The position numbers were made by a program, and so were the translations under genes. A stretch of 64,000 nt of DNA from contig JBCBYV010000014.1 of the NCBI GenBank assembly GCA_039815685.1, positions 12,338 through 76,337 of the forward strand. The letters run 5' to 3'. Source of the DNA: Pseudomonadota bacterium (GTDB lineage Bacteria > Pseudomonadota > Alphaproteobacteria > Rhodobacterales > Rhodobacteraceae). Within the stretch, counting starts at the first letter, position 1; every line of letters begins with the position of its first letter. A model generated the notes under the pieces. It ran no database searches, was not told the DNA's origin, and saw only the letters and a list, made by a program, of their open reading frames with translations. Below are positions 3,364 through 45,991 of this stretch, piece by piece.

Positions 3364-3774
3364 ATGGACGTCGCCGAGGCGAGAGCACTGCTCACCGAGT
3401 TTCACGAAGCGCGCAAAAAGAACGATCCGGACACGCTACGCCCGTTCTTCGCCGAGGGCGCAACCTTCTCGGTCGCGGGCCAGTTGCGAGAAAACTCGAT
3501 CGCGATGGAAGTGATCGACAAGGCGGGCTTCGAACACGCGCTCCACGAGATCCTGCGCGACTGGCGCTGGATCGATGTCGACTTCAAGACGGTCATGGCC
3601 GACGGCGACCTCGTGGTCGTGCGCTACCTACTGACCGTCGAGCACGTGCCGTCGCAGCAGAGCTTTACGACCGACATCGTCGATTTCGTCACCGTTCGCG
3701 ACGGGAAGATCACGGATATGCGCCAGTTCGTGGATACCGCGCATCTCGGTGCCATTGCCGGCTGGAACCGCTGA
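3364..3774 (+). CDS. SnoaL/NTF2-like fold protein
   Basis: 136 aa, pattern MADGDLVVVRY...DFVTVRDGKITDMRQFVDT typical of NTF2-like proteins. Confidence 0.8.
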   Translation: MDVAEARALLTEFHEARKKNDPDTLRPFFAEGATFSVAGQLRENSIAMEVIDKAGFEHALHEILRDWRWIDVDFKTVMADGDLVVVRYLLTVEHVPSQQSFTTDIVDFVTVRDGKITDMRQFVDTAHLGAIAGWNR

Positions 3775-3786
3775 GCTGCGACCCCG

Positions 3787-31854: not shown

Positions 31855-33162
31855 TCAGATATCCAGCGTGTTGGTCCGCTCCCAATCCGAGAAATGGGCG
31901 GTGTAGTCGTGCCATTCCTGCGTCTTGAGCTTCACATAGGCGCCCGCGAAACTCTCGCCCAAGGCCTCCTTCAACTCCGTATCCGCATCGAAGGTGCGGA
32001 GTGCGTCGAGCAGGTTGAGCGGCAGCCGCCGCGCATCGGGCACGAAGGCCGCATCGGCATACATGTCGAAGTCGGACTTCGGGCCCGGATCGGCCTTGTT
32101 GATCAGCCCCGAGAGCCCGGCCGCGATAATCGCCGCCTGCAGGAGGTAGGGGTTCGCCGCCCCGTCCGCGAGACGCAGCTCGAAGCGCCCCGGGCCGGGC
32201 ACGCGGACCATATGCGTTCGGTTGTTGCCGGACCAGGTAACCGTGTTGGGCGCCCAGGTCGCCCCCGAATGCGTCACCGGGGCGTTGATCCGCTTGTAGC
32301 TGTTGACGGTCGGGTTGGTGATCGCCGCCAGCGCCTCCGCATGCGCCATGATCCCGCCCAGGAAGTGTCGGCCTTGCGTGGCGAGGCCAAGCTCCTTCGA
32401 CTCGTCCTCGAAGAGGTTCTTCTTGCCGGCAGGATCCCAGACACTGACATGCGCGTGGCAACCATTGCCCGTCAGCCGCTCGATCGGCTTCGGCATGAAG
32501 GTCGCACGGAGCCCGTGTTTCTCCGCAATCGACTTCACCATGAACTTGAAGAACGAGTGCTTGTCCGCCGTCGCCAGCGCATCGTCGAATTCCCAGTTCA
32601 TCTCGAACTGGCCGTTCGCGTCCTCGTGGTCGTTCTGATAGGGCAGCCAGCCAAGATGCAGCATCGCGTCCGAGATCTCGGCGATCACATCATAGCGGCG
32701 CATCACCGCCTGCTGATCGTAGCAGGGCTTGGCCTGCGTATCGTGCGGGTCGCTGATCTCCGTGCCGTCGGGGTTCAGCAGGAAGAACTCCGCCTCGACG
32801 CCCGACTTCACCCGCATATTCACGCTTTGCGCGGCGAGGATCTGACGGCGGAGCACATTGCGCGGCGCCTGCGCGACCTCGATCCCCTCCATCATGCAGT
32901 CGGCGGCAACCCAGGCGACTTCCGGCTTCCAAGGGAGCTGAATGACCGAGTGCGGATCTGGAAGCGCGAGCATGTCAGGATGCGCGGGGCTCATGTCGAG
33001 ATGGGCGGCAAAGCCCGCAAACCCGGCGCCTTCATCCTGCATCATGCCGATCGCCTGCGTCGGTACGAGCTTCGAGCGCTGCACGCCGAAGAGGTCGGTG
33101 AACGACACCAGGAAGTACTTGACGTTATGCTCCGCCGCGAACTCGCTCAGACTTGCAGACAT
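31855..33162 (-). CDS. gmaS: Type III glutamate-ammonia ligase, gamma-glutamylmethylamide synthetase
   Basis: KYFLVSFTDLFGVQRSKLVP, HEDANGQFEMN, TFMPKP, GNGCHAH, NRTHMVR. Directly downstream of mgsABC. Confidence 0.88.
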   Translation of the reverse strand: MSASLSEFAAEHNVKYFLVSFTDLFGVQRSKLVPTQAIGMMQDEGAGFAGFAAHLDMSPAHPDMLALPDPHSVIQLPWKPEVAWVAADCMMEGIEVAQAPRNVLRRQILAAQSVNMRVKSGVEAEFFLLNPDGTEISDPHDTQAKPCYDQQAVMRRYDVIAEISDAMLHLGWLPYQNDHEDANGQFEMNWEFDDALATADKHSFFKFMVKSIAEKHGLRATFMPKPIERLTGNGCHAHVSVWDPAGKKNLFEDESKELGLATQGRHFLGGIMAHAEALAAITNPTVNSYKRINAPVTHSGATWAPNTVTWSGNNRTHMVRVPGPGRFELRLADGAANPYLLQAAIIAAGLSGLINKADPGPKSDFDMYADAAFVPDARRLPLNLLDALRTFDADTELKEALGESFAGAYVKLKTQEWHDYTAHFSDWERTNTLDI

Positions 33163-33174
33163 GCCATCCCCTCT

Positions 33175-34524
33175 TCAGTAGCCGTTTCGGCCCGGTATCC
33201 ACTCGGTTCCCGCCAGCGGGACCTGCGCCATCGCGGCGGCTTCGACCGTAAGGGCGCATAGGTCCTCCGGCTCCAGGTTCCGTACATCGTTCTTGCCGCA
33301 GGCTCGCGCGATGGTCTGCGCCTCAAGCGTCATGACCTTCAGGAAGTTATGGAGGCGCCGCCCACCCAGCACCGGGTCGAGCCGGGCGGAGAGCTCCGGG
33401 TCCTGCGTCGTGATGCCGGCAGGGTCACGGCCTTCGTGCCAGTCGTCATAGGCGCCCGCGGTGGTGCCGAGAGCGCGATAGTCCTCCTCCCAGCGCGGGT
33501 CGTTATCGCCGAGCGCGATGAGCGCGGCGGTCCCGATGCTCACCGCATCCGCACCTAGCGCCAGCGCCTTGGCCATGTCGGCACCGTTCCGGATGCCGCC
33601 GGAGACGACGAGCTGCACCCGACGGTGCATGCCCAACTCCTCGAGTGCGCGCACCGCCGGACGGATGCAGGCGAGCGTGGGTTGGCCCACATGTTCGATG
33701 AAAACATCCTGCGTCGCCGCTGTGCCGCCCTGCATGCCGTCGAGCACCACGACATCCGCACCGGCCTTCACCGCCAGCGCCGTGTCGTAGTAAGGACGCG
33801 CGCCGCCGACCTTGATGAAGATCGGCTTCTCCCAGCCGGTGATCTCTCGGAGCTCCAGGATCTTGATCTCGAGATCGTCGGGCCCCGTCCAGTCCGGATG
33901 CCGGCAGGCCGAGCGCTGGTCGATACCCGGCGGCAGGGTGCGCATCTCCGCCACGCGGTCATCGATCTTCTGGCCCATGAGCATGCCGCCGCCTCCGGGC
34001 TTCGCGCCCTGGCCCACGACCACCTCGATGGCGTCCGCCCGCCGCAGATCGTGCGGGTTCATACCGTAGCGGGAGGGGAGAAGCTGATAGACCAGCAGCT
34101 CCGAGTGCCCGCGCTCCTCCTCCGTCATGCCGCCATCGCCGGTGGTCGTCGATGTGCCGGCGAGCGTCGCGCCGCGGCCCAGCGCCTCCTTCGCCTGACC
34201 GGAAAGCGCGCCGAAGCTCATACCCGCAATCGTCACGGGGATCTTCAGCTCCAGCGGTTTCGAGGCATGCCGAGTGCCAAGCATCACGCTCGTGTCGCAG
34301 GCCTCGCGATACCCCTCGAGCGGGTAGCGGGACATCGAGGCGCCCAGAAACAGCAGGTCGTCGAAATGCGGCACCGCCCGCTTCACGCCGCCGCCCCGAA
34401 TATCGTAGATGCCCGTCGCCGCCGCCCTCCGGATCTCCGCATTCACCTCAGGCGTGAAGGTCGCGGAGTAGCGCGGCAGGGTCCGGGGCGCCTCTCGGCC
34501 CAGTTTCAGGGGCGTGTCATCCAT
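33175..34524 (-). CDS. mgsC: N-methylglutamate synthase subunit C (FMN-binding glutamate synthase domain; GlxD)
   Basis: IAGMSFGALS, TTTGDGG, GQGAKPGGGG, DGMQGGTAA, SGGIRNGAD. Confidence 0.88.
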   Translation of the reverse strand: MDDTPLKLGREAPRTLPRYSATFTPEVNAEIRRAAATGIYDIRGGGVKRAVPHFDDLLFLGASMSRYPLEGYREACDTSVMLGTRHASKPLELKIPVTIAGMSFGALSGQAKEALGRGATLAGTSTTTGDGGMTEEERGHSELLVYQLLPSRYGMNPHDLRRADAIEVVVGQGAKPGGGGMLMGQKIDDRVAEMRTLPPGIDQRSACRHPDWTGPDDLEIKILELREITGWEKPIFIKVGGARPYYDTALAVKAGADVVVLDGMQGGTAATQDVFIEHVGQPTLACIRPAVRALEELGMHRRVQLVVSGGIRNGADMAKALALGADAVSIGTAALIALGDNDPRWEEDYRALGTTAGAYDDWHEGRDPAGITTQDPELSARLDPVLGGRRLHNFLKVMTLEAQTIARACGKNDVRNLEPEDLCALTVEAAAMAQVPLAGTEWIPGRNGY

Positions 34525-34532
34525 GACGGGCC

Positions 34533-35198
34533 TCAATACGCATCATCGGGCTCGAAGTTGTAGAGCCGTCGGGCCGAGCCGAAGCGGCGGAAGCGGGCAG
34601 GGTCGGCATCCATGAAGCAGGCCTCGAGCTGACCCGTCAGCCAGCGGAGGGAGGCTGCGTCCATCTCCTTCTCCTCGCAATCGGCGCCGAGGCTCTTTAC
34701 CTGGCCACCGACATAGATCTCCGCCTCATAGAGGCTGTCGCCCAGCGCATCGCCCGCATCGCCACAGACGACGAGCCGCCCGGCCTGACCCATGAAGGCG
34801 CCCATATGGCCGATCCGCCCGCCAACCACGATGTCGATCCCCTTCATGGAGATCCCACAGCGCGACGAGGCGTTGCCACGAATGATCAGCAGCCCGCCGC
34901 GACCCGTGGCACCTGCGTACTGGCTCGCATCGCCATCCACGACGACTGTGCCGGACATCATGTTCTCGGCGACACCCGGCCCCGCATTGCCCGCGATCCG
35001 GACGGTCGCCTGCGCGTTCATGCCCGCACAGTAATACCCCGCCGGGCCCGCAACCCGCACCTCGACCGGCGCGTCGAGGCCCACAGCGATGGCATGGCGC
35101 CCGCCGGGATTGGCTACCTCGAAGGCAGGCGCATTGGCCGCCTGCAGGGCCATGTTCACCTGCCGGAGGGGGCTGGTGGAAAGATCGAGCCGCTGCAT
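34533..35198 (-). CDS. mgsB: N-methylglutamate synthase subunit B (GXGXG domain; GlxC)
   Basis: AGYYCAGMN, GVAENMMSG, SRCGISMKG. TGATG coupling with mgsA. Confidence 0.88.
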   Translation of the reverse strand: MQRLDLSTSPLRQVNMALQAANAPAFEVANPGGRHAIAVGLDAPVEVRVAGPAGYYCAGMNAQATVRIAGNAGPGVAENMMSGTVVVDGDASQYAGATGRGGLLIIRGNASSRCGISMKGIDIVVGGRIGHMGAFMGQAGRLVVCGDAGDALGDSLYEAEIYVGGQVKSLGADCEEKEMDAASLRWLTGQLEACFMDADPARFRRFGSARRLYNFEPDDAY

Positions 35199-36097
35199 CA
35201 GTGCTCCCAGAAATAGACGGTGGCGGGTTCCGGCTCCCAGAGCCGGGCCTTGGCGATCCCCGGCAGGACCGCCAAGGCGCGGTACTCCGAGCCGAAGGCG
35301 ACATAGCCCGGGGTCTCCGCCATTACCGCAGGCTTGCAAGCGATGGGGTCGCGCAGGACGCCGAAGCCCGTGGCCGTGCCCACGACGAAGGTGAAGAAGC
35401 CGTCGAGTTCATCGATGCCGTCCTCCAGCGCCCCCCCCAGATTGCGCCCTTGGCGCATCCGTCCGGTGAGAAAGGCCGCGGCCACCTCGCTATCGTTCTC
35501 GGTGTCGAAATGATGCCCCTCCGCCTCCAGCTTCCGACGCAGCCGGTTGTGGTTCGAGAGTGAGCCATTGTGCACAAGGCACTGATCGGGACCGGTGGAG
35601 AACGGGTGGGCGCCGAGGGTCGTCACCGCACTCTCCGTCGCCATGCGCGTATGCCCGATCCCGTGCCGCCCCTTCATCCTGCCGAGACCGAAGCGCTGCG
35701 AGACCGAAGCGGGGGCGCCGACCTCCTTGTAGATCTCAATGGCACCGCCCGCGCTCATGACACTCACATCCGGAAAGCTCTCCCTCAGCAGCGCGCGCAC
35801 CGCCGCCTCCGTATTGGAGGCACAGCGCAGGACGCCATGCGTGTCCTTGCGCTCGATGCTGGCGCCGTGGGTCGAGGGCCGCTCGCAGAGCGTGGCCTCG
35901 ATTGCCGGAAAATCGTCATCAGGCACGGCACTCCGCAATGTGAGTTTGACCGTCCGCTCTGCCTCGGGCGTGTAGACGGCGATCCCGGCGCTGTCCGGTC
36001 CCCGTTCCGTCATCGTCACCAGCATGTCGGACAGCATGCCACCGAGCTCACCCTCGAGCCTGCGATCCTTCAGGAATAGGCCGACGATGCCACACAT
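35198..36097 (-). CDS. mgsA: N-methylglutamate synthase subunit A (class II glutamine amidotransferase; GlxB)
   Basis: N-terminal MCGIVG nucleophile, RGPDSAG, GHTRMATES, HNGSLSN, ENDSE. Confidence 0.9.
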   Translation of the reverse strand: MCGIVGLFLKDRRLEGELGGMLSDMLVTMTERGPDSAGIAVYTPEAERTVKLTLRSAVPDDDFPAIEATLCERPSTHGASIERKDTHGVLRCASNTEAAVRALLRESFPDVSVMSAGGAIEIYKEVGAPASVSQRFGLGRMKGRHGIGHTRMATESAVTTLGAHPFSTGPDQCLVHNGSLSNHNRLRRKLEAEGHHFDTENDSEVAAAFLTGRMRQGRNLGGALEDGIDELDGFFTFVVGTATGFGVLRDPIACKPAVMAETPGYVAFGSEYRALAVLPGIAKARLWEPEPATVYFWEH

Positions 36098-36113
36098 GCC
36101 GCGACTCCCATGC

Positions 36114-36148
36114 TTTCTCTGGAAGAAACATCAGTTCTTCTAGAGAAA
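36114..36148. promoter_or_regulatory. Double-dyad operator upstream of mgsA
   Basis: TTTCTCTGGAAGAAACATCAGTTCTTCTAGAGAAA: 14-bp arms with one mismatch, built from two (T/G)TTCT-N5-AGAAA units 20 bp apart, 17 bp from the ATG. Confidence 0.7.
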
Positions 36149-36205
36149 CAAGAGCGGTGACCTTACTCGCGGATTTTGCGTGGGCAGAGACGGGAGAGAT
36201 GGAGC

Positions 36206-36358
36206 CAGAGCGCCATCCGATCAGCTTGCACCACCGTGATCATCCGCCGGGGTAGGCCCGGCGGTCCAAGGTACCGGGCGCTGAGTCACGATATTGCCCC
36301 AAGATCATGCCGGGGCATGGCAGGATCGTTCAATTGATCCCGTCAGACCGGACGCTGC
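36206..36358. repeat. Degenerate REP/RIME-like composite element
   Basis: TCAT-CCGCCGGG-GTAGG-CCCGGCGG-TCCA (perfect 8-bp stem, 36244-36264) and a second CATGCC-GG-GGCATG hairpin. Same architecture as the elements at 3141 and 9298. Confidence 0.55.
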
Positions 36359-36577
36359 CCCAGTCGTAAGAACGAGATGGCTGAAACCGTTCACGGTCAG
36401 CCCCGAGGCTCAACCCGGGACTCGACAAACCCGATGCAGTCCAAGCTTGTGGCGGCAGGCTTCACTGCCGGAACAAGTCTGGCAGTGAAGCTGACGAACG
36501 TCTCGGTCGTACCACTGGAAAGATCTGAGATAAGCGGGGGCGCTCGCACGCCACCGCCCGATAACGCATCGCCGCCG

Positions 36578-39232
36578 TCAGAAATTCAGCGAGATGTCGC
36601 GGTGATCGGCGCTGCAGGCTGCGACGTAGAGCGCCTGTTCACGCGGCAGACGGGACTGCTGGCGAAGGCCGATCGTGTTCTGGATCGCAGCATCGTATTC
36701 CTCGATCACGGCGAGCAGCCCGGCCTCGCGCGCCTGCAGACGCCAGGCCTTCTCGAACTCGAACGCCTCCATCCCCTCGGCAAACTCCTCCTCGGCGTCC
36801 TCATAGTCAGGCGTATCGTCGTCGATATCGCGCCGTGCCCCGGCGATACCGGAGCGGATGTCGCCCGCCCCTTCGATGGCGCCGATCATCTGCTCAATGG
36901 GCGCAAAACGCTCCTCCGCCGCCTCACCCTGGAAGTTCCGCCACTCACCCTCAAGCTCGCGCAGCGGCTCCTCGAGCGCCAGCAGCGCGTCCGTATCCGC
37001 GAGGATGGCGGACAGCTCCATCACGGGCTTGTAGGCGGCATCGACCGAACGGCGATAGGCGTTCCGCGCGTTCCGGTCGTCGCGCGTGATCGCGACATAG
37101 GCTTCCTGCACCTCGGTCCAGTCGCCGGGGATCTGGGCGAGGAGCGCTTCCTTGTCCGCCTCCAGCACCACGATCTCGGCCTCTGCGTCGGCGATCAGCT
37201 CCTCATTGCCCTGCGCAAAGTTGACGCTCTGGCGCAAATCTTCGAGGACGGCATCGATCTGGCGGGCATCGCGCTGGAGCGCTCGAACGAGCGTATGTGC
37301 CGGGCGATAGTCGCCCGCTCCCTCGTCCAGGCGCTGCTCGACCGCCTTGATCTCGGCCATGTGCTCGAAGCTCTCCCGCGCGTTCTCGAGACCTTCCTCG
37401 AACTCCTCGCGCAGGTCTTCCGGCAGGTAGGAGAGATCGACCCCCTCCATCCGACCGATCGCCGCCTCGAGCTCCGCACGGTTCTCAGTGAACTGCTCGT
37501 GGATGAAGTTCTCCATGCAGTACTGCAAGCGTGGGTTGAGGGGCGGCGGCGCCGTCTCCGCCGTCAGCGAGGAACGCGTCGGCAGATAGTTCACGAGGCT
37601 CGGATTGAAGCCCACGATCACGAGCGCGATGAGCTGCAGCGAGATGAAGGCGATGACGCCCTTGTACATCTGGATCGTCCGTACCGCCGCCGGCGCCACG
37701 CCGCGCAGATAGAAGAGCGCAAAGCCGAAGGGCGGCGTGAGGAACGATGTCTGGATGTTGAGCCCGATCATGACGCCGAGCCAGACAGCGGTCACGTTCG
37801 CGCCCGGGTCGGCCAGCAGGATCGGCGCCACGATGGGCACGACGACCACGGCGATCTCGATGAAGTCCAGGAAGAAGCCGAGGACGAAGATCACCAGCAT
37901 CACGATGACAAAGCGCGTCCAGAACCCGCCCGGCAGCCCTTCGAGGAAGTGCTTGACCAGTTCCTCGCCGCCGAAGGCCCGGAAGGCGGCCGTCAGCATC
38001 GCGGCACCGAGGAGGATGATGAAGACGAGCGAGGTGGTCTTCGCCGTCTCGACCATCACGCCCTGGAGCGTGTCGTCGGTCGTGTAGGTGCGCCAGCCCG
38101 ACCAGAGGAGGCCGACGGCCGTGATGCCGACGCCGATCAGCGCGAGCGTCACACCCGTCACGTCCTCGGGCGTGTCGATCGCCTTGATGTTGGTGTCGTA
38201 GTTCGCGAGCACGTAGCCGATGATGGCGAGGCCGATGAGCGCCATGATCGCGGGCACGAAGGTCAGCGCTCCGCCCTTGTGCAGCCGATAGCCCGCCATG
38301 ATCATCGCGCCGACAGCACCGATGGCGCCTGCCTGGTTCACCGTCGCGATGCCGCCGATGATCGAGCCGAGCACGAGGAAGATCAGCAGGAGCGGCGGGA
38401 TGAGAGCGAGCGCCACCTTGCCGGCGAAGCGCGCATCGTACTTGCCGTCATAGGGCACCGGCGGCGCAAGCTTCGGCCGGACGAGCGCGAAGGCCAGGAT
38501 GAAAGCGATGTAGAGCCCGACCAGCAGCAGGCCGGGCACGAGCGCGCCGAGGAACATGTCGCCGGCGGAGGTGGAGACGACACCGTATTCGGACGGCATC
38601 ACGATCTCGCCAGTCGCTTCCTTGTAGAGCTCCTTCCGAGACGTATCCGCCTGGTCGACCGCACTCGCCAACTGGTCGGCGAGGATGATCAGCACGATGG
38701 AGGGCGGAATGATCTGCCCCAGCGTGCCGGAGGCCGCGATGGTGCCCGTGGCAAGCGGGTTGGAATAGCCACGCTGCATCATGGCCGGGAGCGAGATCAG
38801 GCCCATGGCGACAACGGTGGCACCGACAATGCCGGTCGTCGCCGCCAGCAGCGCACCCACGAAGACGACCGAGATGCCGAGACCCCCGGGAACCGGCCCG
38901 AAGAGCTGCGCCATCGTGACGAGCAGATCCTCCGCGATCTTCGACCGCTGGAGCATGATGCCCATGAAGATGAAGAGCGGAATGGCGATCAGGGTATCTC
39001 GATCGGGTTCCCAGTACACCCCTCGAAGGTTCGTGACCCCCGCCGACAGCCACTGCGACGGTCCGCCGGAAGCGAAGTAGGCGTCCGTGTCCCCCGCGAA
39101 CAGATAGCCCGAGATGGCGGCCGCCGCGATCGTGATGATCGCGGCACCAGGCAGCGCGAAGGCAACCGGGTAACCGGAGCCGAGCGCGAACGCCATGATG
39201 ACCACGAGGAGGAGGAGGAAGTAGAGTTCCAT
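36578..39232 (-). CDS. TRAP large permease (DctM) with internal insertions and ~330-aa C-terminal soluble domain
   Basis: LIAIPLFIFMG, ATTGIVGA, SGTLGQIIPPS, FFLDFIEI, SFLTPPFGFALFY; last TM ends NYLPT near 37580, then an acidic helical tail. Confidence 0.9.
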   Translation of the reverse strand: MELYFLLLLVVIMAFALGSGYPVAFALPGAAIITIAAAAISGYLFAGDTDAYFASGGPSQWLSAGVTNLRGVYWEPDRDTLIAIPLFIFMGIMLQRSKIAEDLLVTMAQLFGPVPGGLGISVVFVGALLAATTGIVGATVVAMGLISLPAMMQRGYSNPLATGTIAASGTLGQIIPPSIVLIILADQLASAVDQADTSRKELYKEATGEIVMPSEYGVVSTSAGDMFLGALVPGLLLVGLYIAFILAFALVRPKLAPPVPYDGKYDARFAGKVALALIPPLLLIFLVLGSIIGGIATVNQAGAIGAVGAMIMAGYRLHKGGALTFVPAIMALIGLAIIGYVLANYDTNIKAIDTPEDVTGVTLALIGVGITAVGLLWSGWRTYTTDDTLQGVMVETAKTTSLVFIILLGAAMLTAAFRAFGGEELVKHFLEGLPGGFWTRFVIVMLVIFVLGFFLDFIEIAVVVVPIVAPILLADPGANVTAVWLGVMIGLNIQTSFLTPPFGFALFYLRGVAPAAVRTIQMYKGVIAFISLQLIALVIVGFNPSLVNYLPTRSSLTAETAPPPLNPRLQYCMENFIHEQFTENRAELEAAIGRMEGVDLSYLPEDLREEFEEGLENARESFEHMAEIKAVEQRLDEGAGDYRPAHTLVRALQRDARQIDAVLEDLRQSVNFAQGNEELIADAEAEIVVLEADKEALLAQIPGDWTEVQEAYVAITRDDRNARNAYRRSVDAAYKPVMELSAILADTDALLALEEPLRELEGEWRNFQGEAAEERFAPIEQMIGAIEGAGDIRSGIAGARRDIDDDTPDYEDAEEEFAEGMEAFEFEKAWRLQAREAGLLAVIEEYDAAIQNTIGLRQQSRLPREQALYVAACSADHRDISLNF

Positions 39233-39303
39233 GGGACGCCGCCCTTGTCGTTCTCGTTATGGTTAAGCAGGCACGCAGCGCGCCGGGCGGCGCGCCGTGG
39301 TCG

Positions 39304-40323
39304 TCAGAGCGGTTCCATATGCGACTCGCGATGCCCCGGCTCGCCGCGCCGATCCGCCACCCCGTCGAAGAGCTGGCTGACGAACTGGATTAGCATGGTG
39401 GCGGCGAAGACGCCGAGGAACCCGGCCATGAAGTACTTCACGTACATGCCGAAGCCGGCCTGCGTCACCTCGAAGACGAGGATCGGGCTCACGATGACCG
39501 CGTTCGCAGAGCTGAAGCCGAAATAGAGGATGGTCCAGCAGACCGACATCCCGAGCAGGATCGAGCCCAGGCTGTTCACGAGCCCCTGCCCCCGCTGCGA
39601 CATGCCTGCGTAGAAGAGGTCGACCCTCACATGTCCGTCCTCGAGCAGCGTGTAGGCGGAGGCGAAGAGGAAGAGCGCGCCGTACCAGAACCGCACGAGA
39701 TCGGCCATGAAGGCCTGCTCGTATGAGAAGACGAAGCGGCAGACGACGATCAGGAGTTCGGCCACGACGACGAGGAGCGCGAGCCAGGTGAAGCCGAGTG
39801 TCCGCGTGAAGAAGGCGATCACGATCCCGAGCAGAACCAGTGGCGTGTGAAAGTAGAGCCCCCGGTATGCAGACCGGCCGAGATCGCCCGCCATCTCCTC
39901 ACCGACATAGCCCTCCAGCATCCCCTCGACGCGCAGGAACGACATCGCCGCGTCTCCGACGCCCACGAGGAAGACGGCCCAGAAGGCCGCGCGCACGAGG
40001 AAGGCATTGAAGGCCGCGACGCGCGCCGCATCGGACCGAAGGCTCGTCTCGGCCGTTCGAGCGACGTGCCAGACCGTAAAGGCGGGGGCTGCGAGATAGA
40101 TGATGAGCTGCACGACAGCGAGACCGGTGGAGCCCTCGCCACCGCTGCCGAACAAGCTCTCGACACCCGGAAAGCCGACCCAGAAGGTCAGGATCGAGTT
40201 CAGCAGGAAGACTGCGAGCAGGCTCAGCATGAGCCATCCGAAGCCGCGGACGAGAGCCGTAGATCCGCCGCTCGCGCCGGCATGCACGTCACCAGTCGCC
40301 GAAGCCGTCATGCTTTCAGCCAT
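39304..40323 (-). CDS. TRAP small permease (DctQ) with N-terminal multi-TM extension
   Basis: 339 aa. DctQ core (YGALFLFASAYTLLEDGHVRVDLFY) lies in the C-terminal half. Confidence 0.85.
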   Translation of the reverse strand: MAESMTASATGDVHAGASGGSTALVRGFGWLMLSLLAVFLLNSILTFWVGFPGVESLFGSGGEGSTGLAVVQLIIYLAAPAFTVWHVARTAETSLRSDAARVAAFNAFLVRAAFWAVFLVGVGDAAMSFLRVEGMLEGYVGEEMAGDLGRSAYRGLYFHTPLVLLGIVIAFFTRTLGFTWLALLVVVAELLIVVCRFVFSYEQAFMADLVRFWYGALFLFASAYTLLEDGHVRVDLFYAGMSQRGQGLVNSLGSILLGMSVCWTILYFGFSSANAVIVSPILVFEVTQAGFGMYVKYFMAGFLGVFAATMLIQFVSQLFDGVADRRGEPGHRESHMEPL

Positions 40324-40392
40324 ACGTCCTCTCCGCTCCGGATAGCTGGACGAGCAGGACGGCCCCGCGACCGACCCGGTCCATAAAGAAGT

Positions 40393-40419
40393 AGGGGCAG
40401 GCCCGAAGGCCCGCCCCCT
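40393..40419 (-). terminator. Hairpin between dctP and dctQ (partial terminator or mRNA stabiliser)
   Basis: On minus GGGGCGGGCC-TTCG-GGCCTGCCCC followed by TACTTCTTT. Confidence 0.6.
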
Positions 40420-40426
40420 CTACGCC

Positions 40427-41509
40427 TCAGAGATCGAGGACGCGGTTGCGCTTCTGCACGAAGGCCTGGTCGGAAATGGCCGTCCAGCTACCGATGTCCT
40501 TCCGCGCCAGCAGGAAGCTGTCGAAGATCTCCTTCGCCAGCGGGCTGTGATCCCGCGCTTCCTCGATGACCTCGGCCGCAGCCTCTCCGAAGCTCTCGTA
40601 GACGTCGTCGTTGAACTCCTTGAGCTCGACGCCGTTCTCCGTGACGAGGCGGGTGAGGAAGGTACCGTTGTTGGCGTTCGTCTCGGCCATCTGACGGGCG
40701 TTCTCTTCGTTCGCCGCCGCCTCGATGATCGCCTGATCGGTGGCCGAGAGGCCGCCCCACCAGGAAGCGTTCATGCCGAGAGCGAGCTGCGAGCCCGGCT
40801 CGTGCATGCCCGGCCAGTAGTAGAACTTGGCCGCCTCGTAGAACTTCATGAAGTAGTCGTTGTAGGGGCCGACCCACTCCGTCGCGTCCACGGCACCCGA
40901 TACCAAGTTCTCGTAGATCTGACCGCCCGGCAGCGAGACGGGGGAGGCGCCGAGCTTGGCCATGACGTCGCCGCCGAGACCCGGGATACGCATCTTAAGA
41001 CCCTTGAGGTCGTCGGCGCTCTCGATCTCCTTGTTGAACCAGCCGCCCATCTGCACGCCGGTGTTGCCGCAGGCGAAGTTCTTGAGGCCGAACTCACCGG
41101 CAAGCTTGTCCCAGAGCTGCTGACCGCCAGCATACTTAATCCAGGCGTCGATCTCGGTGTAGGTGAGGCCGAAGGGGACAGCCGTGAACGGCGCCCAGCC
41201 CGGATGCTTGCCCTTCCAGTAGTAGTCGGCGGCGATGTAGGCCTGCGCGTTGCCGCTCGCGACCTCATCGAAGCTGTCGAAGGCGCCGACACGCTCGCCC
41301 GCAGCGAAGTACTGGACGTTGATGCGGCCCTCGGTCAGCTCCGGGATGCGCGCGGCAAGACGCTGGGCGCTGACGCCGAGGCCGGGGAAGTCCCGCGGCC
41401 AGGTCGACACGATGACCATGTCGATCTTGCCCTGTGCGACGGCCGGTGCCGCGAGCGGCGCGGCCACACCCGCAGCAGCAGCGCCTGCGAGGAAGTTACG
41501 ACGTTCCAT
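40427..41509 (-). CDS. TRAP substrate-binding protein, Tat-exported (TakP-like)
   Basis: MERRNFLAG twin-Arg signal, GNTGVQMGGWFNKEI, GLKMRIPGLGG, EWVGPYND, PGMHEPG. Confidence 0.9.
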   Translation of the reverse strand: MERRNFLAGAAAAGVAAPLAAPAVAQGKIDMVIVSTWPRDFPGLGVSAQRLAARIPELTEGRINVQYFAAGERVGAFDSFDEVASGNAQAYIAADYYWKGKHPGWAPFTAVPFGLTYTEIDAWIKYAGGQQLWDKLAGEFGLKNFACGNTGVQMGGWFNKEIESADDLKGLKMRIPGLGGDVMAKLGASPVSLPGGQIYENLVSGAVDATEWVGPYNDYFMKFYEAAKFYYWPGMHEPGSQLALGMNASWWGGLSATDQAIIEAAANEENARQMAETNANNGTFLTRLVTENGVELKEFNDDVYESFGEAAAEVIEEARDHSPLAKEIFDSFLLARKDIGSWTAISDQAFVQKRNRVLDL

Positions 41510-41774: not shown

Positions 41775-43175
41775 TCAGCCGGTGTCGATGAGACGACGCA
41801 TCGTCTCTAGAAATCGCCCCTCGACTGTTTCGCGCTGCGGATGGCGGCCCTCCTGCACTACATGGCGTCCGGCGGACCAGAGCTCAGCGATCGTGCCGTC
41901 CCCTGCCGCGAAGACCATGCCGTCGATCAACGCATAGAGCGGCAGGGGCGCAAGCGCGGAGTGGGAGAGGTTTGGCGCGAGCAGGTCGGCAAGATGTCCC
42001 TCCGCGATCCGGCCCGCGCGCCGGTCGAGCGCCTGTGCCGCCCCTTCCGCCGCCGCCCGCCAGAGTGTCTCGCCGGTGGAGACGGGCGGCGCGCCCTCAC
42101 CGCCCTCGGGCACCATGCAGCCCCGGGCCCGCATCGTCAGCCGCTGGCCGTATTCAAGCATGCGCAACTCCTCCCCAAGCGCGATCCGGACATTCGAGTC
42201 CGACCCGACCCCGAGCCGTCCGCCTGCGCGAAGGAAGTCGGGGCCGGGAAAGATCCCGTCGCCAAGATTGGCCTCGGTGATCGGGCATAAGCCTGCGACC
42301 GCCCCGCTTCGGGCCAGCCCCTCGGTCTCCTCCGCGATCATGTGTGTCGCATGCACGACGCACCATCGCGAATCGAGGAACCTGCGGAGCAGCCAGGCGA
42401 TCGGACGCTGCCCAAGCCAGGTTTCGATCTCCTCCACCTCGCGCGTCTGCTCTGCTGCGTGAATGTGCACGGGCCCGCTCGGCACTGCCTCCAGCACCGC
42501 ACGCATCCCAGCTTCATCGCAGGCCCTGAGCGAATGGAAGGCGAGGCCCAGGCGCGCATCTTCAGTCGCCTCGGACAGGATCGACCGGCAGGTTTCGAGA
42601 AGTCCGAGGAAACCATCGGGCGCGTGCCCGAAGCGCCGCTGTCCACCGTCGAGTGGCGCGTTCCGCGCCCCGCCGTACTGATAGAGCACCGGGAGATGCG
42701 TGAGCCCGATCCCTGTCTCGACCGCAGCACCTGCGATCCGGCGCGAGAGCTCCGCCCGGTCCTCGTAGGGCGCGCCGCCGGGCTGGTGATGGAGATAATG
42801 GAACTCACCAACCGCCGCGTAGCCCGCCTCCAGCATCTCGACGAAGACCTGCGCCGCGATGGCCTCGACATCATCGGGCGTCAGCCGGTCGAGAAAGCGG
42901 TACATGAGCGTGCGCCAAGTCCAGAAGCTGTCCCGGCCCGGCCGTGCTGCCTCCCCCAGCCCTGCCATCGCGCGCTGGAAGCTGTGAGAATGCAGGTTGC
43001 CCGGCGCGGGAAGCAGTACCGGCACCCGCAGATCGCCCGGCGCCGCAGCGGTACCCACTTCGACGCCCGCGATATGGCTGTCCGCCATGGTCACGCGCAC
43101 ATCGCACGCCCAGCCATCCGGCAAGAGCGCCGATCCCGCATGCAGCGCGCGCCCGCTCCTTTCAGCCATGAACAT
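41775..43175 (-). CDS. hutF: Formimidoylglutamate deiminase
   Basis: NLHSHSFQRAMAG, DSFWTWR, VGEFHYLHH, HIHAAEQ, CPITEANLGDG, GSDSN. Real start ATG 43175, not 43775. Confidence 0.92.
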   Translation of the reverse strand: MFMAERSGRALHAGSALLPDGWACDVRVTMADSHIAGVEVGTAAAPGDLRVPVLLPAPGNLHSHSFQRAMAGLGEAARPGRDSFWTWRTLMYRFLDRLTPDDVEAIAAQVFVEMLEAGYAAVGEFHYLHHQPGGAPYEDRAELSRRIAGAAVETGIGLTHLPVLYQYGGARNAPLDGGQRRFGHAPDGFLGLLETCRSILSEATEDARLGLAFHSLRACDEAGMRAVLEAVPSGPVHIHAAEQTREVEEIETWLGQRPIAWLLRRFLDSRWCVVHATHMIAEETEGLARSGAVAGLCPITEANLGDGIFPGPDFLRAGGRLGVGSDSNVRIALGEELRMLEYGQRLTMRARGCMVPEGGEGAPPVSTGETLWRAAAEGAAQALDRRAGRIAEGHLADLLAPNLSHSALAPLPLYALIDGMVFAAGDGTIAELWSAGRHVVQEGRHPQRETVEGRFLETMRRLIDTG

Positions 43176-43241
43176 CTCCCCTAGGCACGCGCCAGCCGTC
43201 CGCCTTACGGTGCATTCCGAAGCGGCGGAGGTCGAGCGGCG

Positions 43242-44456
43242 ATGACGGGCGACAAAAGGCTTCTCACAGGCGCACGCCTCGCCACGATGGACCCGAGCCT
43301 TCCCACACCCTACGGCCTGATCGACGACGGCACGGTCGTGATCGAGGGTGGCCGGATCGCCTGGACAGGTTCCAGTGCCGCGCTGCCCACTGAGCACCGT
43401 AGCGCGCCGTCCGACGCCTGCGAGGGTCGCCTCGTGACCCCCGCGCTCATCGACTGCCACACCCATATCGTGCATGCGGGCAGCCGGGCGGGCGAGTTCG
43501 AGCAGCGGCTCAAAGGCGCGAGCTATGCCGAGATTGCAGCGGCCGGCGGTGGCATCCTCAGCACCGTGACGGCGACCCGGGCGGCGACCGAGGACGACCT
43601 TCTCGAGAACGCCCTCCGCTGGGTCGACCGGCTTCTCGCGGAGGGCGTCGGCACCATCGAGATCAAATCGGGCTACGGGCTGGACATCGAGACCGAGCTT
43701 CGCATGCTCCGCGCAGCCAGGCGCGTGGCCGAGAAGCGGGACATCACCGTCGTGACTAGCTTCCTGGGCGCCCATGCCATCCCGCCAGCCTTCAAGGACC
43801 GGAACCGCGCCTACCTCGACGAGACCTGCCTGCCCGCCCTACGCGCCGCCGCCGAGCAGGGTCTTGCCGACGCCGTTGACGGGTTCTGCGAGGGCATCGC
43901 CTTCTCGACCGAAGAGATCGACCATCTGTTCAAGGCGGCCAAGGCGCTGGGACTGCCGGTGAAACTGCACGCAGAACAGCTCTCCAACATCGGCGGGGCA
44001 GCGCTCGCGGCGCGGCATGGGGCGCTCTCCGCCGACCATATCGAGTACCTCGATCAGGATGGCATCGACGCAATGGCGGCAGCCGGGACCGTCGCCGTCC
44101 TGCTGCCTGGCGCCTTCTACACCTTGCGCGAGACGCAGGCCCCGCCGATAGAACAGCTCCGCGCCGCCGGCATTCCGATGGCGGTCGCCACGGACGCGAA
44201 CCCGGGCTCCTCGCCCATGGTCTCCCTCCTCCTCGCGATGAACATGGCCTGCACCCTCTTCCGCCTCACGCCGGAGGAGGCGCTGACCGGTGTCACGCGC
44301 AACGCGGCCCGCGCCCTTGGCCTCACGGATCGCGGTATCCTCCGCCAAGGCCTCCGCGCTGACCTCGCGATCTGGGAGGTGGAGCACCCCGCAGAGCTCT
44401 CCTGGCGCATTGGCTGGGCGCCCCTTGCGCGTCGCATTCTCGGAGGCCGCGGATGA
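43242..44456 (+). CDS. hutI: Imidazolonepropionase
   Basis: [40 protein letters not shown]. Confidence 0.95.
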
Positions 44457-45991
44457 CCGCCGAAGCGCTCACGCTGACCCCCGGCGCGGTGACACTCGGC
44501 ACCCTGCGAACGCTCCTGGCCGAGGGTCGCCCTGCGCGCCTCGACCGAGCCTGCCGCCCCGCCGTCGAAGCCGCCGCTGCCCGCGTGGCAGAAGCCGCCG
44601 CAGGGGACGACCCGGTCTACGGCGTCAACACGGGCTTCGGGAAGCTCGCCAGCATCCGCATCCCGGCGGAGGACACCGCGACCCTCCAGCGGAACCTGAT
44701 CCTGAGCCACTGCGCCGGCGTCGGCGACACGCTGCCGCTCGGGCCCGCGCGCCTGATGATGGCGCTCAAGCTCGCCTCCCTCGGCCGCGGCGCGTCGGGT
44801 ACGCGATGGGAGATCGTCACACTCCTCGAAGGCATGCTCGCCGCCGGCGTCACCCCCGTCGTGCCGGTGAAGGGCTCCGTCGGGGCGTCGGGCGACCTCG
44901 CCCCGCTGGCCCACATGACCGCCGTGATGATCGGGGAGGGGGAGGCCGAGGTCGCGGGCCGCATCCTGCCGGGCGCCGAGGCCCTCGCCGCCGCGGGCCT
45001 CGCCCCGGTCGCCCTCGGACCCAAGGAGGGCCTCGCCCTCATAAACGGCACGCAGTTCTCAACCGCCCTCGCCCTCGCCGGCCTCTTCTCCGCCTGGATC
45101 GCGGCGCAGGCCTCGCTCGTCACCACCGCGCTCTCGACCGACGCCGTGATGGGCAGCACCGCGCCCTTGCAGCCGGAGATCCACGCCCTCCGCGGCCATC
45201 GCGGCCAGATCGAAGCGGCGGCGAGCATGCGCGCGCTCCTCGAGGGCTCCGAGATCCGGGAGAGCCACCGCGAGGACGACACCCGCGTCCAGGACCCCTA
45301 CTGCATCCGCTGCCAGGCACAGGTGGTCGGGGCCGCGATGGACGTCCTGCGCATGGCCGCGGGCACCCTCGAGATCGAGGCGAACGCGGCGACCGACAAC
45401 CCGCTCGTCCTTGCCGAGCCATCGCGCATCGTCTCCGGCGGCAATTTCCATGCGGAGCCCGTGGGCTTCGCCGCGGACATGATCGCGCTCGCGGTGGCCG
45501 AGATCGGCGCGATCGCGCAGCGGCGCGTGGCCCTAATGGTCGACCCGGCACTCAGCCACGACCTGCCGCCGTTCCTTACGCCCGCGCCGGGCCTCAACTC
45601 GGGCTTCATGATCGCGGAGGTGACCACCGCGGCGCTCATGTCCGAGAACAAGCACCTCGCCCACCCCACGGTGACGGACTCGACGCCCACCTCCGCCAAC
45701 CAGGAGGACCATGTCTCCATGGCTGCCCACGGCGCCCGCCGCCTGCCGCCGATGGTCACGAACCTCGAACGCATCCTCGGCGTCGAACTCCTCTGCGCCG
45801 CCCAGGGCGTCGAGTTCCGTAGCCCTCTCACGACGAGCCCCGCCCTCGCCCGCGCCATCACCGCGCTCCGCGCTGAGATCCCGCCGCTGGTTGAGGACCG
45901 CATTCTGTCGCCCGAAATCGACCGCGCGGCACAACTGATCGCGACCGGCCACCTCGCCGCTGCCCCCGCCGTCCCGCTCCCCGCACTCTGA
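44453..45991 (+). CDS. hutH: Histidine ammonia-lyase
   Basis: [12 protein letters not shown] motif [39 protein letters not shown]. Confidence 0.95.

What the first reader, a model, noticed from the sequence alone, without database searches (positions are those of the whole stretch)
36578..41509. Non-canonical TRAP transporter: enlarged DctQ and DctM with a Cys-clamped ~330-aa helical domain
Seen: DctM is 884 aa versus 430-471 aa for the other two DctM here. It has a loop insertion (DQADTSRKELYKEATGEIVMPSEYG), roughly two extra TMs, and after the last TM a ~330-aa acidic, heptad-like domain with exactly two Cys, one near each end (LQYCME, VAACSADH). DctQ is 339 aa versus ~197 aa, with extra N-terminal TMs. 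Known: canonical TRAP membrane subunits have little soluble mass. Inference: a disulfide-closed periplasmic helical hairpin that may tether or capture the binding protein, drive oligomerisation, or act as a sensor. This is the most architecturally novel system in the window, and its substrate is unknown.
Basis: partly seen in the sequence, partly recalled or inferred. Interest (0 to 1): 0.72.

Follow-up and report, generated by a model that had tools for sequence, protein, structure and literature searches.

The report
TRAP transporter with periplasmic helical domain
This nutrient-uptake (TRAP) transporter belongs to a widespread marine subfamily, also abundant in SAR11, whose membrane subunits carry an undescribed 330-residue helical domain, probably disulfide-stapled and facing the periplasm, plus four extra membrane helices of unknown function.

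Summary
dctP (360 aa), dctQ (339 aa) and dctM (884 aa) lie on the minus strand at 36578-41509.

DctM residues 1-552 are a TRAP large permease. Residues 553-884 match no Pfam, NCBIfam or PDB entry, yet AlphaFold2 models them confidently as all-helical.

The tail is conserved in hundreds of homologues from marine Alpha- and Gammaproteobacteria, including very abundant SAR11 versions, and was only ever found fused to DctM. It always co-occurs with a DctQ carrying four extra N-terminal membrane helices.

Both tail cysteines are present in 216 of 216 complete tails. The one exception found has lost both.

Homology to solved TRAP structures and the positive-inside rule both place the tail in the periplasm.

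The binding protein is TakP-like. Every pyruvate- and cation-binding residue checked is invariant, it has a twin-arginine signal and it keeps the C-terminal dimerisation segment. The substrate is therefore probably a small 2-oxo or 2-hydroxy acid.

Three points need correcting:
- The two extra DctM helices also occur in some tail-less relatives.
- Tail acidity is not conserved (net charge -43 to +19).
- The neighbouring genes are not conserved.

Function remains inferred. My best guess is an accessory periplasmic arm seated on the enlarged Q scaffold that helps handle the dimeric binding protein. I class it as a new variant of a known kind.

The parts
40427..41509 (-). dctP: TakP-like TRAP solute-binding protein (360 aa) with a twin-arginine signal (MERRNFL...AVAQG) and a C-terminal segment equivalent to the TakP swapped helix.
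   Evidence: Pfam DctP E 2.4e-51. NCBIfam TRAP_S1 scores 62.1, above its cut-off of 50, and TIGR01409 (Tat signal) scores 19.3, above 16.7. The nearest PDB entries are 2hzk/2hzl (TakP), 4pet, 5cm6, 7ug8, 4yzz and 4yic, at E 1e-64 to 4e-69. TakP residues Y100, Q156, R177 and W215, plus E214 of the identical DATEWVGPY motif, correspond to Y97, Q153, R174, W212 and E211; these are (near-)invariant in 29 long-form and 11 short-form DctP.
40393..40418 (-). Terminator-like GC-rich hairpin with a T-rich tail, between dctP and dctQ.
   Evidence: 11 pairs, 9 of them G-C. This is a consensus match only. Its position would fit a higher output of P than of Q and M (inference).
39796..40323 (-). dctQ N-terminal extension (aa 1-176): four additional TM helices (H19-49, H66-89, H95-132, H151-172).
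   Evidence: AF2 model pLDDT 83.8, pTM 0.82. No Pfam or NCBIfam match. It is not a detectable duplicate of the DctQ core (hhalign probability 0.45%). Conserved motifs include R26, WPG, LRxD, FLRVEG and H159-x-P161. It is present in every tail-bearing locus that has upstream DNA and absent from tail-less relatives.
39304..39795 (-). dctQ canonical core (aa 177-339, four TM helices) plus stop codon.
   Evidence: Pfam DctQ scores 38.9, above its cut-off of 28.3, over aa 191-321. Foldseek matches PpSiaQ 7qha_A over 144 columns, the size of this core, with TM-score 0.69 and rmsd 3.2 A.
37577..39232 (-). dctM membrane domain (aa 1-552): TRAP large permease with an elevator fold.
   Evidence: Pfam DctM E 5.3e-61. 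It aligns to IseQM 9pym, FnSiaQM 8y4w, HiSiaQM 7qe5/8thi and PpSiaM 7qha_B up to residue ~552. Foldseek gives the same structures.
38582..38656 (-). Loop insertion DQADTSRKELYKEATGEIVMPSEYG (aa 193-217).
   Evidence: HMMER places a 32-residue gap between query 183 and 216 against 9pym and 8y4w. In the MAFFT alignment about half is shared with tail-less TakM-like relatives and ~14 aa are specific to the long form.
38078..38284 (-). Insert of two extra TM helices (aa ~317-385).
   Evidence: Hydropathy peaks at 325-343 and 358-376. AF2 helices at 326-344 and 355-384. The insert is absent from the window's other two DctM and from L072 and L080. It is present in tail-less L041, L048, L052, L060 and L064.
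36581..37576 (-). dctM C-terminal tail (aa 553-884): a Pro-rich linker and the conserved motif TAPPPxNPxLQYC, then a ~300-aa all-helical body, then the conserved C-terminus GLRxQxRL...C...HRDISLxF.
   Evidence: AF2 pLDDT is 85-95 over residues 570-870, all helices, one of them 68 residues long (605-672). There is no Pfam, NCBIfam or PDB match by sequence or fold. Invariant residues across 34 lineages are listed. Conservation peaks at both ends and at 725-734. Tail length is held at 324-336 aa.
37517..37519 (-). Codon of Cys572 (LQYCME).
   Evidence: Read directly. Invariant.
36614..36616 (-). Codon of Cys873 (VAACSADH).
   Evidence: Read directly. Invariant, and lost only together with Cys572 in P0119.

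Best explanation
The locus encodes a DctP-type TRAP transporter of the TakP / 'mannitol-chloroaromatic' (COG4663-4665) branch. It belongs to a distinct, widespread and so far undescribed subfamily with two co-inherited additions.

(a) A ~330-residue all-helical domain is fused to the C-terminus of DctM. That is the end of the last helix of the mobile elevator bundle.

(b) A four-helix membrane module sits at the N-terminus of DctQ, the scaffold subunit.

Shown here: both additions are real, conserved and strictly co-occurring, and the tail was found only fused to DctM.

Inferred with good support: the tail lies in the periplasm, and its two ends are held together near the membrane by a C572-C873 disulfide.

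Inferred with weaker support (the mechanism):
- The conserved tail ends (TAPPPxNPxLQYC and ...HRDISLxF) seat on the periplasmic face of the enlarged Q scaffold.
- The fast-evolving but length-conserved helical body projects beside the docking site of the binding protein.
- There it acts as an accessory arm that positions or retains the Tat-exported, probably dimeric, TakP-like binding protein.

The substrate is most likely a small 2-oxo or 2-hydroxy monocarboxylate such as pyruvate, or an isosteric sulfonate, bound together with a cation.
For: The architecture is real and conserved.
- The tail has at least 444 clusters at 90% identity, nearly all 880-888 aa.
- A profile search gave 776 hits. 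The best 150 were listed and five were opened; those were C-terminal pieces of DctM or frameshifted read-throughs.
- It occurs in 29 of 401 evenly sampled genomes of the class and in 23 of 308 genera. The open frame is almost always ~885-900 aa; shorter frames seen are a contig end, a frameshift or partial matches.
- The SAR11 versions are very abundant in metagenomes.

Co-inheritance. Every tail-bearing locus with upstream DNA also has the Q extension and a 59-81% identical DctP. Tail-less relatives at 41-48% identity lack both additions.

Fold.
- The tail is modelled at pLDDT 85-95 and is all-helical.
- Q is modelled with eight TMs at pTM 0.82.

Periplasmic side.
- In HiSiaQM the fusion helix joins M on the periplasmic side (PMC10942642).
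- M has ten TMs plus two re-entrant hairpins (PMC9352664), so the canonical C-terminus is periplasmic.
- Solved chains end where this tail starts.
- The insert adds two TMs, so parity is kept.
- The loop before the last TM carries 2.98 K+R against 0.48 D+E on average over 46 sequences. The N-terminus and loop 344-357 are acidic.

Disulfide.
- There are exactly two Cys, one near each end, in 216 of 216 complete tails.
- They are invariant in 34 lineages.
- The sole exception lost both.
- The rest of DctM is almost Cys-free.

The tail end belongs to the elevator bundle. TM10 and TM11 are part of the mobile bundle in HiSiaQM.

Tail and Q extension are linked.
- Conservation is concentrated at the two tail ends.
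- The last eight residues are modelled poorly in the monomer, as expected if a partner is missing.
- The partial correlation of evolutionary distances, given the M core, is 0.40 for tail with Q extension.

Binding protein.
- It is TakP-like.
- All TakP ligand and cation residues checked are conserved.
- The C-terminal helix region is present.
- TakP is a helix-swapped dimer, and its authors proposed that it stays docked on the membrane subunits (PMC1839085).
Against: - No multimer model, coordinates or experiment were available. The tail-Q and tail-P contacts and the disulfide are therefore unobserved.
- The partial correlation between tail and DctP distances is about zero (-0.07). The tail surface evolves 3-4 times faster than the highly conserved DctP. 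Neither fits easily with a large, specific tail-P interface.
- The correlation method is weak. The pairs are non-independent, and fast-evolving regions may correlate for compositional reasons.
- Tail-less TakQM systems work with the same kind of dimeric binding protein, so an arm is not needed for TakP-type transport as such.
- Foldseek found no homologue that would suggest a binding function.
Confidence: 0.42

Rival explanations
1. The tail is a structural spacer or oligomerisation module that does not depend on the binding protein. As a length-conserved periplasmic helical mast, it would either dimerise QM complexes or set the transporter's position relative to the cell envelope (peptidoglycan or outer membrane). 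The extra Q helices would simply anchor it.
For: - Length is tightly conserved at 324-336 aa, while the sequence evolves fastest of all parts and the net charge swings from -43 to +19. That pattern is typical of rulers and coiled-coil spacers.
- One helix is 68 residues long, about 100 A.
- The only fold hits, all insignificant, are elongated helical bundles: BAR domains, SH3BP5, HlyD and Wzc.
- There is no co-variation with DctP.
Against: - No heptad-based family match rises above noise.
- No internal repeats were found.
- Several invariant polar or aromatic residues lie inside the body: R650, W705, Y726-R-R, D731, Y734, W830 and R831. These suggest a specific site rather than a plain spacer.
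- No envelope partner is conserved in the neighbourhood.
Confidence: 0.2
2. The tail is a regulatory or gating element. It is attached to the last helix of the moving elevator bundle and pinned by a reversible disulfide. It could therefore brake or license elevator movement in response to periplasmic redox state, ions or a ligand. That would make it a built-in sensor.
For: - The attachment point is the C-terminus of the last transport-domain helix.
- A flexible, low-confidence linker spans residues 544-564.
- The Cys pair is strictly conserved.
- A conserved internal patch (YRRxVDxAY, W705, W830-R831) could bind something.
Against: - No similarity to known periplasmic sensor domains such as Cache, 4HB, HBM or PAS in Pfam or PDB.
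- In six related loci sensing appears to be done by a separate dCache histidine kinase with a NarL-type regulator.
- The one lineage without the Cys pair keeps the whole domain.
Confidence: 0.12
3. The tail is a cytoplasmic coiled-coil domain, for example for regulation or protein recruitment, and the cysteines are not a disulfide.
For: Acidic, helical, coiled-coil-like tails on transporters are often cytoplasmic. The membrane part of the AF2 model was of low confidence, so the topology rests on homology rather than on the model.
Against: - The canonical DctM C-terminus is periplasmic, and the number of extra TMs is even.
- The positive-inside pattern places the loop before the last TM in the cytoplasm.
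- The strict two-or-none Cys parity is what periplasmic disulfides show.
Confidence: 0.05

Closest known systems
TakPQM of Rhodobacter sphaeroides (alpha-keto-acid TRAP transporter; TakP = PDB 2HZK/2HZL) and the other TakP-like binding proteins 4PET, 5CM6, 7UG8, 4YZZ and 4YIC
   Same: - The binding-protein family is the same, at E 4e-69 to 1e-64.
- Tyr, Gln, Arg and Trp of the pyruvate/cation site, and the Glu of the DATEWVGPY motif, are all conserved.
- It has a twin-arginine signal and a C-terminal segment equivalent to the swapped dimerisation helix.
- The membrane subunits belong to the same COG4664/4665 branch and share part of the loop insertion. In some members they also share the two extra TMs.
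   Different: Tail-less relatives of this branch end at the last TM, and their Q aligns only to the core of this Q. This system adds a 330-aa periplasmic domain to M and four TMs to Q. Its DctP differs from short-form DctP at a set of long-form-invariant positions: R39, Y67, Q89, K185, Q197, E200, N201, K222 and E225.
Structurally solved TRAP membrane components: PpSiaQM (7QHA), HiSiaQM (7QE5, 8THI), FnSiaQM (8Y4W) and IseQM (9PYM)
   Same: The DctM elevator fold and the four-helix DctQ scaffold match by sequence and by fold. The topology with the M termini on the periplasmic side is inferred to be the same.
   Different: The solved proteins have almost no soluble mass. Where they enlarge the scaffold, it is with a single fusion helix, not a four-helix module. 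They have no C-terminal domain.
TPAT systems (TPR-protein-associated TRAP transporters, TatT/TatP(T)/TatQM of Treponema pallidum).
   Same: This is a precedent for a fourth, all-helical periplasmic component that works with the binding protein of a TRAP transporter.
   Different: TatT is a separate TPR lipoprotein, not a domain fused to M. The tail shows no TPR signature apart from a noise-level TPR_23 hit at E 0.17, and it did not retrieve TatT among the 50 listed fold matches. The comparison is an analogy only.
ABC importers with binding domains fused or tethered to the membrane subunit (for example GlnPQ and OpuA). Recalled knowledge; the TakP paper makes the same comparison.
   Same: The concept is the same: the receptor is kept at the translocator rather than left to diffuse freely.
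   Different: The transporter class is different. In this system the binding protein is still a separate, Tat-exported protein, and the fused domain is not a binding-protein fold.

Membership tests
TRAP transporter large permease, DctM (Pfam PF06808 / TIGR00786) | Sequence match to the family model above the curated threshold | tested here: met
   PF06808 scores 207.1 bits against a cut-off of 23.8. TIGR00786 scores 249 bits, below its stricter cut-off of 268.45, because the match is split by the insertions.
TRAP transporter large permease, DctM (Pfam PF06808 / TIGR00786) | Elevator fold shared with solved SiaM/IseM structures | tested here: met
   HMMER aligns residues 13-552 to 9pym, 8y4w, 7qe5, 8thi and 7qha_B. 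Foldseek ranks the same five first at probability 1.00, although TM-scores are low because the membrane part of the model was poor.
TRAP transporter small permease, DctQ (Pfam PF04290) | Four-helix DctQ domain | tested here: met
   PF04290 scores 38.9 bits against a cut-off of 28.3, over aa 191-321. The best Foldseek hit is PpSiaQ 7qha_A over 144 columns at TM-score 0.69. No NCBIfam model matches.
DctP-type TRAP solute-binding protein (Pfam PF03480; NCBIfam NF037995) | Family match, export signal, and the conserved arginine that binds the substrate carboxylate | tested here: met
   PF03480 scores 175.2 bits. NF037995 scores 62.1, above its cut-off of 50. The Tat signal model TIGR01409 scores 19.3, above 16.7. 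R174 aligns with TakP R177 and is invariant.
TakP-like (COG4663) alpha-keto-acid binding proteins | The cation-mediated ligand site described for TakP (Tyr100, Gln156, Arg177, Trp215) | tested here: met
   Y97, Q153, R174 and W212 align to those residues, and E211 aligns to E214 of the identical DATEWVGPY motif. All are invariant or nearly so in 29 long-form and 11 short-form proteins.
TakP-like (COG4663) alpha-keto-acid binding proteins | Long C-terminal helix that swaps between monomers to form a dimer | tested here: inconclusive
   The sequence continues through the equivalent region (aa ~323-360) and aligns to TakP up to residue 350. Whether it forms a dimer cannot be tested here.
TakP-like (COG4663) alpha-keto-acid binding proteins | Actual binding of 2-oxo acids | not testable with these tools
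   This needs DSF or ITC with purified DctP.
Fused QM TRAP permeases (TIGR02123, HiSiaQM type) | Q and M in a single polypeptide joined by a connector helix | tested here: not met
   Q and M are separate ORFs with a 71-nt gap. TIGR02123 scores 37.9 against a cut-off of 320.65.
Known periplasmic helical domains (HBM/4HB sensor domains, TPR, spectrin, BAR, adaptor hairpins) | A significant sequence or fold match for the tail | tested here: not met
   Pfam gives only coiled-coil noise, for the window tail and for all 34 aligned tails. The best PDB sequence hit has E 0.82. Foldseek matches attributable to the tail have E above 1.5. Caveat: the fold search used the full-length model, so tail-only hits were ranked below the membrane hits.

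The most novel reading that the evidence does not exclude
The M tail and the four extra Q helices together form a fourth functional element of TRAP transport. This would be a disulfide-stapled periplasmic arm, anchored on an enlarged scaffold, that keeps the back-to-back TakP-type binding-protein dimer permanently docked. The result would be a 'tethered-receptor' TRAP transporter. It would realise the membrane-bound pathway that the TakP authors proposed in 2007, and it would be used by some of the most abundant bacteria in the ocean (SAR11 and roseobacters) to scavenge 2-oxo acids or hydroxy-sulfonates at very low concentrations.
Probability: 0.2. Interest if true: 0.85.

Novelty: new variant of a known kind. 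Interest (0 to 1): 0.62.

Why it matters
TRAP transporters are a major route of organic-acid uptake in marine bacteria. Their mechanism, an 'elevator with an operator', has been worked out only on minimal SiaQM-type systems that have almost no soluble mass.

This subfamily departs from that model in two ways:
- About 40% of the large subunit is an undescribed periplasmic domain attached to the moving part of the elevator.
- The scaffold subunit has twice the usual number of helices.

The subfamily occurs in roughly 7% of sampled genomes of this class and in some Gammaproteobacteria. In SAR11 one exact binding-protein sequence was seen on at least 1000 metagenome contigs. Yet the tail has no Pfam or NCBIfam model of its own, no solved structure, and no mention in the literature I could search.

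Working out what the domain does would test whether binding proteins can be held at a secondary transporter. It would also give a name and probably a substrate class to a very abundant ocean transporter. The predictions are directly testable by reporter fusions, Cys mutants, tail deletion, cryo-EM and ligand screening.

Tried and rejected
1. Contact prediction. Mean-field DCA on 226 tails (Meff 171) was meant to find helix packing and the closeness of the two ends. The output was dominated by gap and frameshift artefacts and was discarded.

2. Q extension as a duplicated DctQ. hhalign probability was 0.45%, so this was rejected.

3. Internal repeats in the tail, spectrin-like or otherwise. hhalign probability was at most 13%, so this was rejected.

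4. Recurrent weak Pfam families across 34 tails. Only generic coiled-coil noise appeared.

5. Substrate from synteny.
- Only P, Q and M are conserved.
- The mgsABC/gmaS-like and hut genes beside this copy are not conserved elsewhere.
- Some SAR11 and other loci carry GlcD-like or LldD-like genes nearby, which is suggestive only.

6. Acidity as a functional property, for example cation capture. Rejected, because net charge ranges from -43 to +19.

7. Tail as a free-standing protein.
- Two short open frames appeared.
- One is cut by a contig end.
- The other (G212) is a frameshift inside the C-run that encodes APPP.
- So no natural split version was found.

8. Equating the SAR11 long-form system with SAR11_0864-0866, whose binding protein binds isethionate (tested with Ca2+) and DHPS. 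This could not be settled from papers, cluster names or a homologue search.

9. Cys-Cys distance. I could not measure it, or view the tail's 3D shape, because model coordinates are not returned.

10. Literature. Searches for any description of the tail found nothing relevant.

Full report
**1. What is there**

Three co-directional ORFs lie on the minus strand.
- dctP: 40427..41509, 360 aa.
- dctQ: 39304..40323, 339 aa.
- dctM: 36578..39232, 884 aa.

The 1049-aa ORF on the plus strand (36377..39526) is a high-GC shadow of dctM.

The Pfam and NCBIfam scans recognise only part of each membrane subunit.
- The DctM model covers residues ~36-545 of DctM.
- The DctQ model covers residues 191-321 of DctQ.
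- DctP gets a full-length match plus a twin-arginine signal.
- Nothing matches DctM residues 553-884 or DctQ residues 1-176, even at E up to 10.

Solved TRAP permeases (IseQM 9pym, FnSiaQM 8y4w, HiSiaQM 7qe5/8thi, PpSiaM 7qha) align to residues 13-552. Their chains stop exactly where the tail begins.

The genome holds about 21 DctM genes. The other two in this window are of ordinary size and lack the insertions.

**2. It is a conserved family, not an accident**

Searching with the tail alone gave three results.
- At least 444 clusters at 90% identity, almost all 880-888 aa and annotated only as 'TRAP transporter large permease'.
- A profile of 34 diverse tails found 776 proteins among 1.84 billion representatives.
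- The best 150 were listed; the five I opened were C-terminal parts of DctM, contig-truncated fragments or frameshifted read-throughs.

A scan of species genomes found the long form in the following groups.
- Rhodobacterales, Roseibium, Hoeflea, Thalassobaculum, Nisaea and Kiloniellaceae.
- Pelagibacteraceae (SAR11).
- Several Gammaproteobacteria: Granulosicoccus, a Chromatiales symbiont and Ectothiorhodospiraceae.

In an even sample of the class, 29 of 401 genomes and 23 of 308 genera carry it. They usually have one copy, and the distribution is patchy: three other genera of this organism's own family lack it.

The SAR11 versions are extremely abundant.
- One exact DctP sequence occurs on at least 1000 contigs.
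- Two 90% clusters have 1003 and 1861 members.

**3. Two additions travel together**

In every tail-bearing locus with upstream sequence, tblastn also finds two things.
- The DctQ N-terminal extension.
- A DctP that is 59-81% identical to this one.

The nearest tail-less relatives are 41-48% identical, end at about residue 551, and lack both the tail and the Q extension.

- The two extra TM helices (aa ~317-385) are present in some tail-less relatives (L041, L048, L052, L060, L064). They are absent in others (L072, L080).
- About half of the loop insertion is also shared with tail-less relatives.

What defines the subfamily is therefore the tail plus the Q extension.

**4. Anatomy of the additions**

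*The tail.* AlphaFold2 on a 46-sequence alignment modelled the membrane part poorly. It modelled residues 570-870 at pLDDT 85-95 as purely helical.
- The helices span 567-596, 605-672 (68 residues, about 100 A), 677-698 and 705-745, followed by shorter ones up to 873.
- The linker (544-564) and the last eight residues are of low confidence.

Across 34 lineages the invariant tail residues are P562-P-P, N566, P567, C572, R650, W705, W830, G855, C873, S881, L882 and F884.

Conservation is highest at the two ends (555-574 and 855-884) and at YRRxVDxAY (725-734).

The body evolves 3-4 times faster than the membrane core, yet tail length stays within 324-336 aa. Net charge ranges from -43 in this organism to +19, so acidity is not a family trait.

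No internal repeats were detected.

*The DctQ extension.* The model is confident (pLDDT 83.8, pTM 0.82) and shows eight TM helices.
- The last four match the size of PpSiaQ, which Foldseek aligns over 144 columns at TM-score 0.69.
- The first four match nothing.
- They are not a detectable duplicate of the Q core.

**5. Which side of the membrane, and are the cysteines a pair?**

Topology argument:
- In HiSiaQM the connector helix starts in the cytoplasm and joins M on the periplasmic side (PMC10942642).
- M consists of ten TM helices plus two re-entrant hairpins (PMC9352664).
- The canonical M C-terminus is therefore periplasmic.
- This protein adds an even number of TMs (two), so the tail should also be periplasmic.

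Positive-inside rule, averaged over 46 sequences:
- The loop before the last TM has 2.98 K+R and 0.48 D+E, so it is cytoplasmic.
- The N-terminus and loop 344-357 are acidic.

Cysteines:
- All 216 complete tails available have exactly two Cys, one near each end.
- The single exception, P0119, has replaced both (C to S and C to D).
- The rest of DctM is nearly Cys-free.

This two-or-none parity is what a structural periplasmic disulfide predicts.

Neither the location nor the bond was observed directly. Model coordinates are not returned, so the Cys-Cys distance could not be measured.

**6. Binding protein and substrate**

DctP's closest solved relatives are TakP of R. sphaeroides (2hzk/2hzl) and the TakP-like proteins 4pet, 5cm6, 7ug8, 4yzz and 4yic, at E 1e-64 to 4e-69.

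The TakP paper describes how pyruvate is bound (PMC1839085).
- It is held by Arg177 and Tyr100.
- A cation bridges it to Gln156, the Trp215 carbonyl and acidic side chains.
- A 40-residue C-terminal helix swaps between monomers to make a tight dimer.
- The authors proposed that this dimer might stay docked on the membrane subunits.

In this DctP the named residues align to Y97, Q153, R174 and W212, and E211 aligns to E214 of the identical DATEWVGPY motif. All are invariant or nearly so in 29 long-form and 11 short-form homologues, and the C-terminal segment is present. The twin-arginine motif is invariant among long-form proteins.

The substrate class is therefore most likely a small 2-oxo or 2-hydroxy acid bound with a cation.

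SAR11's TRAP binding protein SAR11_0864 binds isethionate, tested with Ca2+ (PMC11485210), and DHPS (PMC13335735). I could not establish whether it is the partner of the SAR11 long-form system.

Gene neighbourhood gives no help. Only P, Q and M are conserved. The mgsABC/gmaS-like and hut genes that flank this copy are not conserved elsewhere.

**7. How it most likely works**

Shown:
- The additions exist, are conserved and co-occur.
- The tail was found only fused to DctM.

Well-supported inference:
- The tail is periplasmic.
- Its two conserved ends are tied together near the membrane by a disulfide.

The attachment point is the C-terminus of the last helix of the mobile transport bundle (TM11 in HiSiaQM numbering), while Q is pure scaffold.

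Weaker inference: the conserved tail ends seat on the periplasmic face of the enlarged Q scaffold. Three observations point that way.
- The Q extension has conserved motifs at its predicted periplasmic boundaries.
- The tail's C-terminal peptide is disordered in the monomer model.
- The partial correlation of evolutionary distances, given the M core, is 0.40 for tail with Q extension but -0.07 for tail with DctP.

On this reading the helical body stands next to the docking site and helps position or retain the dimeric binding protein.

The lack of co-variation with DctP and the fast-evolving tail surface count against a large, specific tail-DctP interface. I therefore give the mechanism only moderate odds. 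The live rivals are a spacer or oligomerisation role and a gating or redox role.

**8. Comparison with what is known**

By every membership test run, this is a TRAP transporter of the TakP / COG4663-4665 branch. It is not a fused QM type.

The tail has no significant match to any known domain by sequence or fold. The best tail-like Foldseek hits are BAR, SH3BP5, HlyD and Wzc helical bundles at E above 1.5.

The closest functional precedents are analogies recalled from knowledge, not homologues.
- TPAT systems, which have a separate helical TatT protein.
- ABC importers with tethered binding domains.

Full-text searches found no description of this tail.

Earlier notes of this scan, which I consulted only after reaching my own reading, report the same subfamily in several other genomes with similar conclusions. 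They are AI notes and not independent evidence.

**9. Verdict**

The feature is real, widespread and unannotated. I class it as a new variant of a known kind. The architecture and the periplasmic placement are solid, while the function is unproven. Interest is moderate to high because of its abundance in ocean bacteria and because it bears on how TRAP transporters work.

Noticed in passing
window 40393-40418 (-): A GC-rich hairpin with a T-rich tail lies between dctP and dctQ. It is a candidate attenuating terminator that would give more binding protein than membrane subunits.
   Followed up: no
window 36098-36577: A 480-nt gap lies downstream of dctM. Its GC content is lower (~0.60 against ~0.66), and no ORF of 80 aa or more on the dctM strand, promoter or terminator was called.
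   Followed up: no
window 31855-36097 (-): Four genes resemble N-methylglutamate synthase subunits plus gamma-glutamylmethylamide synthetase: a class-II amidotransferase, a GXGXG protein, an FMN GltB-like protein and a glutamine-synthetase-like protein. The assignment is by eye from the translations. None of the four was found next to the long-form TRAP in any other locus.
   Followed up: partly
window 41775-45991: Histidine-utilisation genes: hutF-like on the minus strand directly upstream of dctP, and hutI and hutH on the plus strand. The 666-aa hutF ORF is over-extended at its 5' end. A tail-less TakP-type TRAP in L064 also sits beside hutF, hutI and hutH, which may be coincidence.
   Followed up: partly
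L081 4470-4485 (genome G212): One genome has the long-form dctM split into a 572-aa membrane ORF and an intact 326-aa tail ORF. The cause is a frameshift inside the C-run that encodes APPP. It is either an assembly error or a recent pseudogene.
   Followed up: yes
L003, L004, L009, L013, L030, L053, ~3200-5800: Six long-form loci have a divergent pair upstream of dctP: a histidine kinase with a predicted periplasmic sensor domain, and a NarL/LuxR-type response regulator. This is a candidate dedicated regulator. Both assignments were made by eye from the sequences.
   Followed up: no
27 long-form loci (window plus L001-L053): DctP pairwise distances correlate poorly with those of Q and M (r 0.16-0.29). 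All the membrane parts correlate well with each other (r 0.70-0.83). This may mean a separate history for dctP, or it may reflect its narrow range of divergence.
   Followed up: partly
whole genome G000: The genome (4.7 Mb, 62 contigs) holds about 21 DctM genes, three of them in this window. That is an unusually TRAP-rich organism.
   Followed up: no
L022 and L039 (SAR11), upstream of dctP: FMN-dependent 2-hydroxy-acid dehydrogenase-like and GlcD-like FAD oxidase genes lie near the SAR11 long-form operon. This would fit uptake of a 2-hydroxy or 2-oxo acid. The assignments were made by eye only.
   Followed up: no
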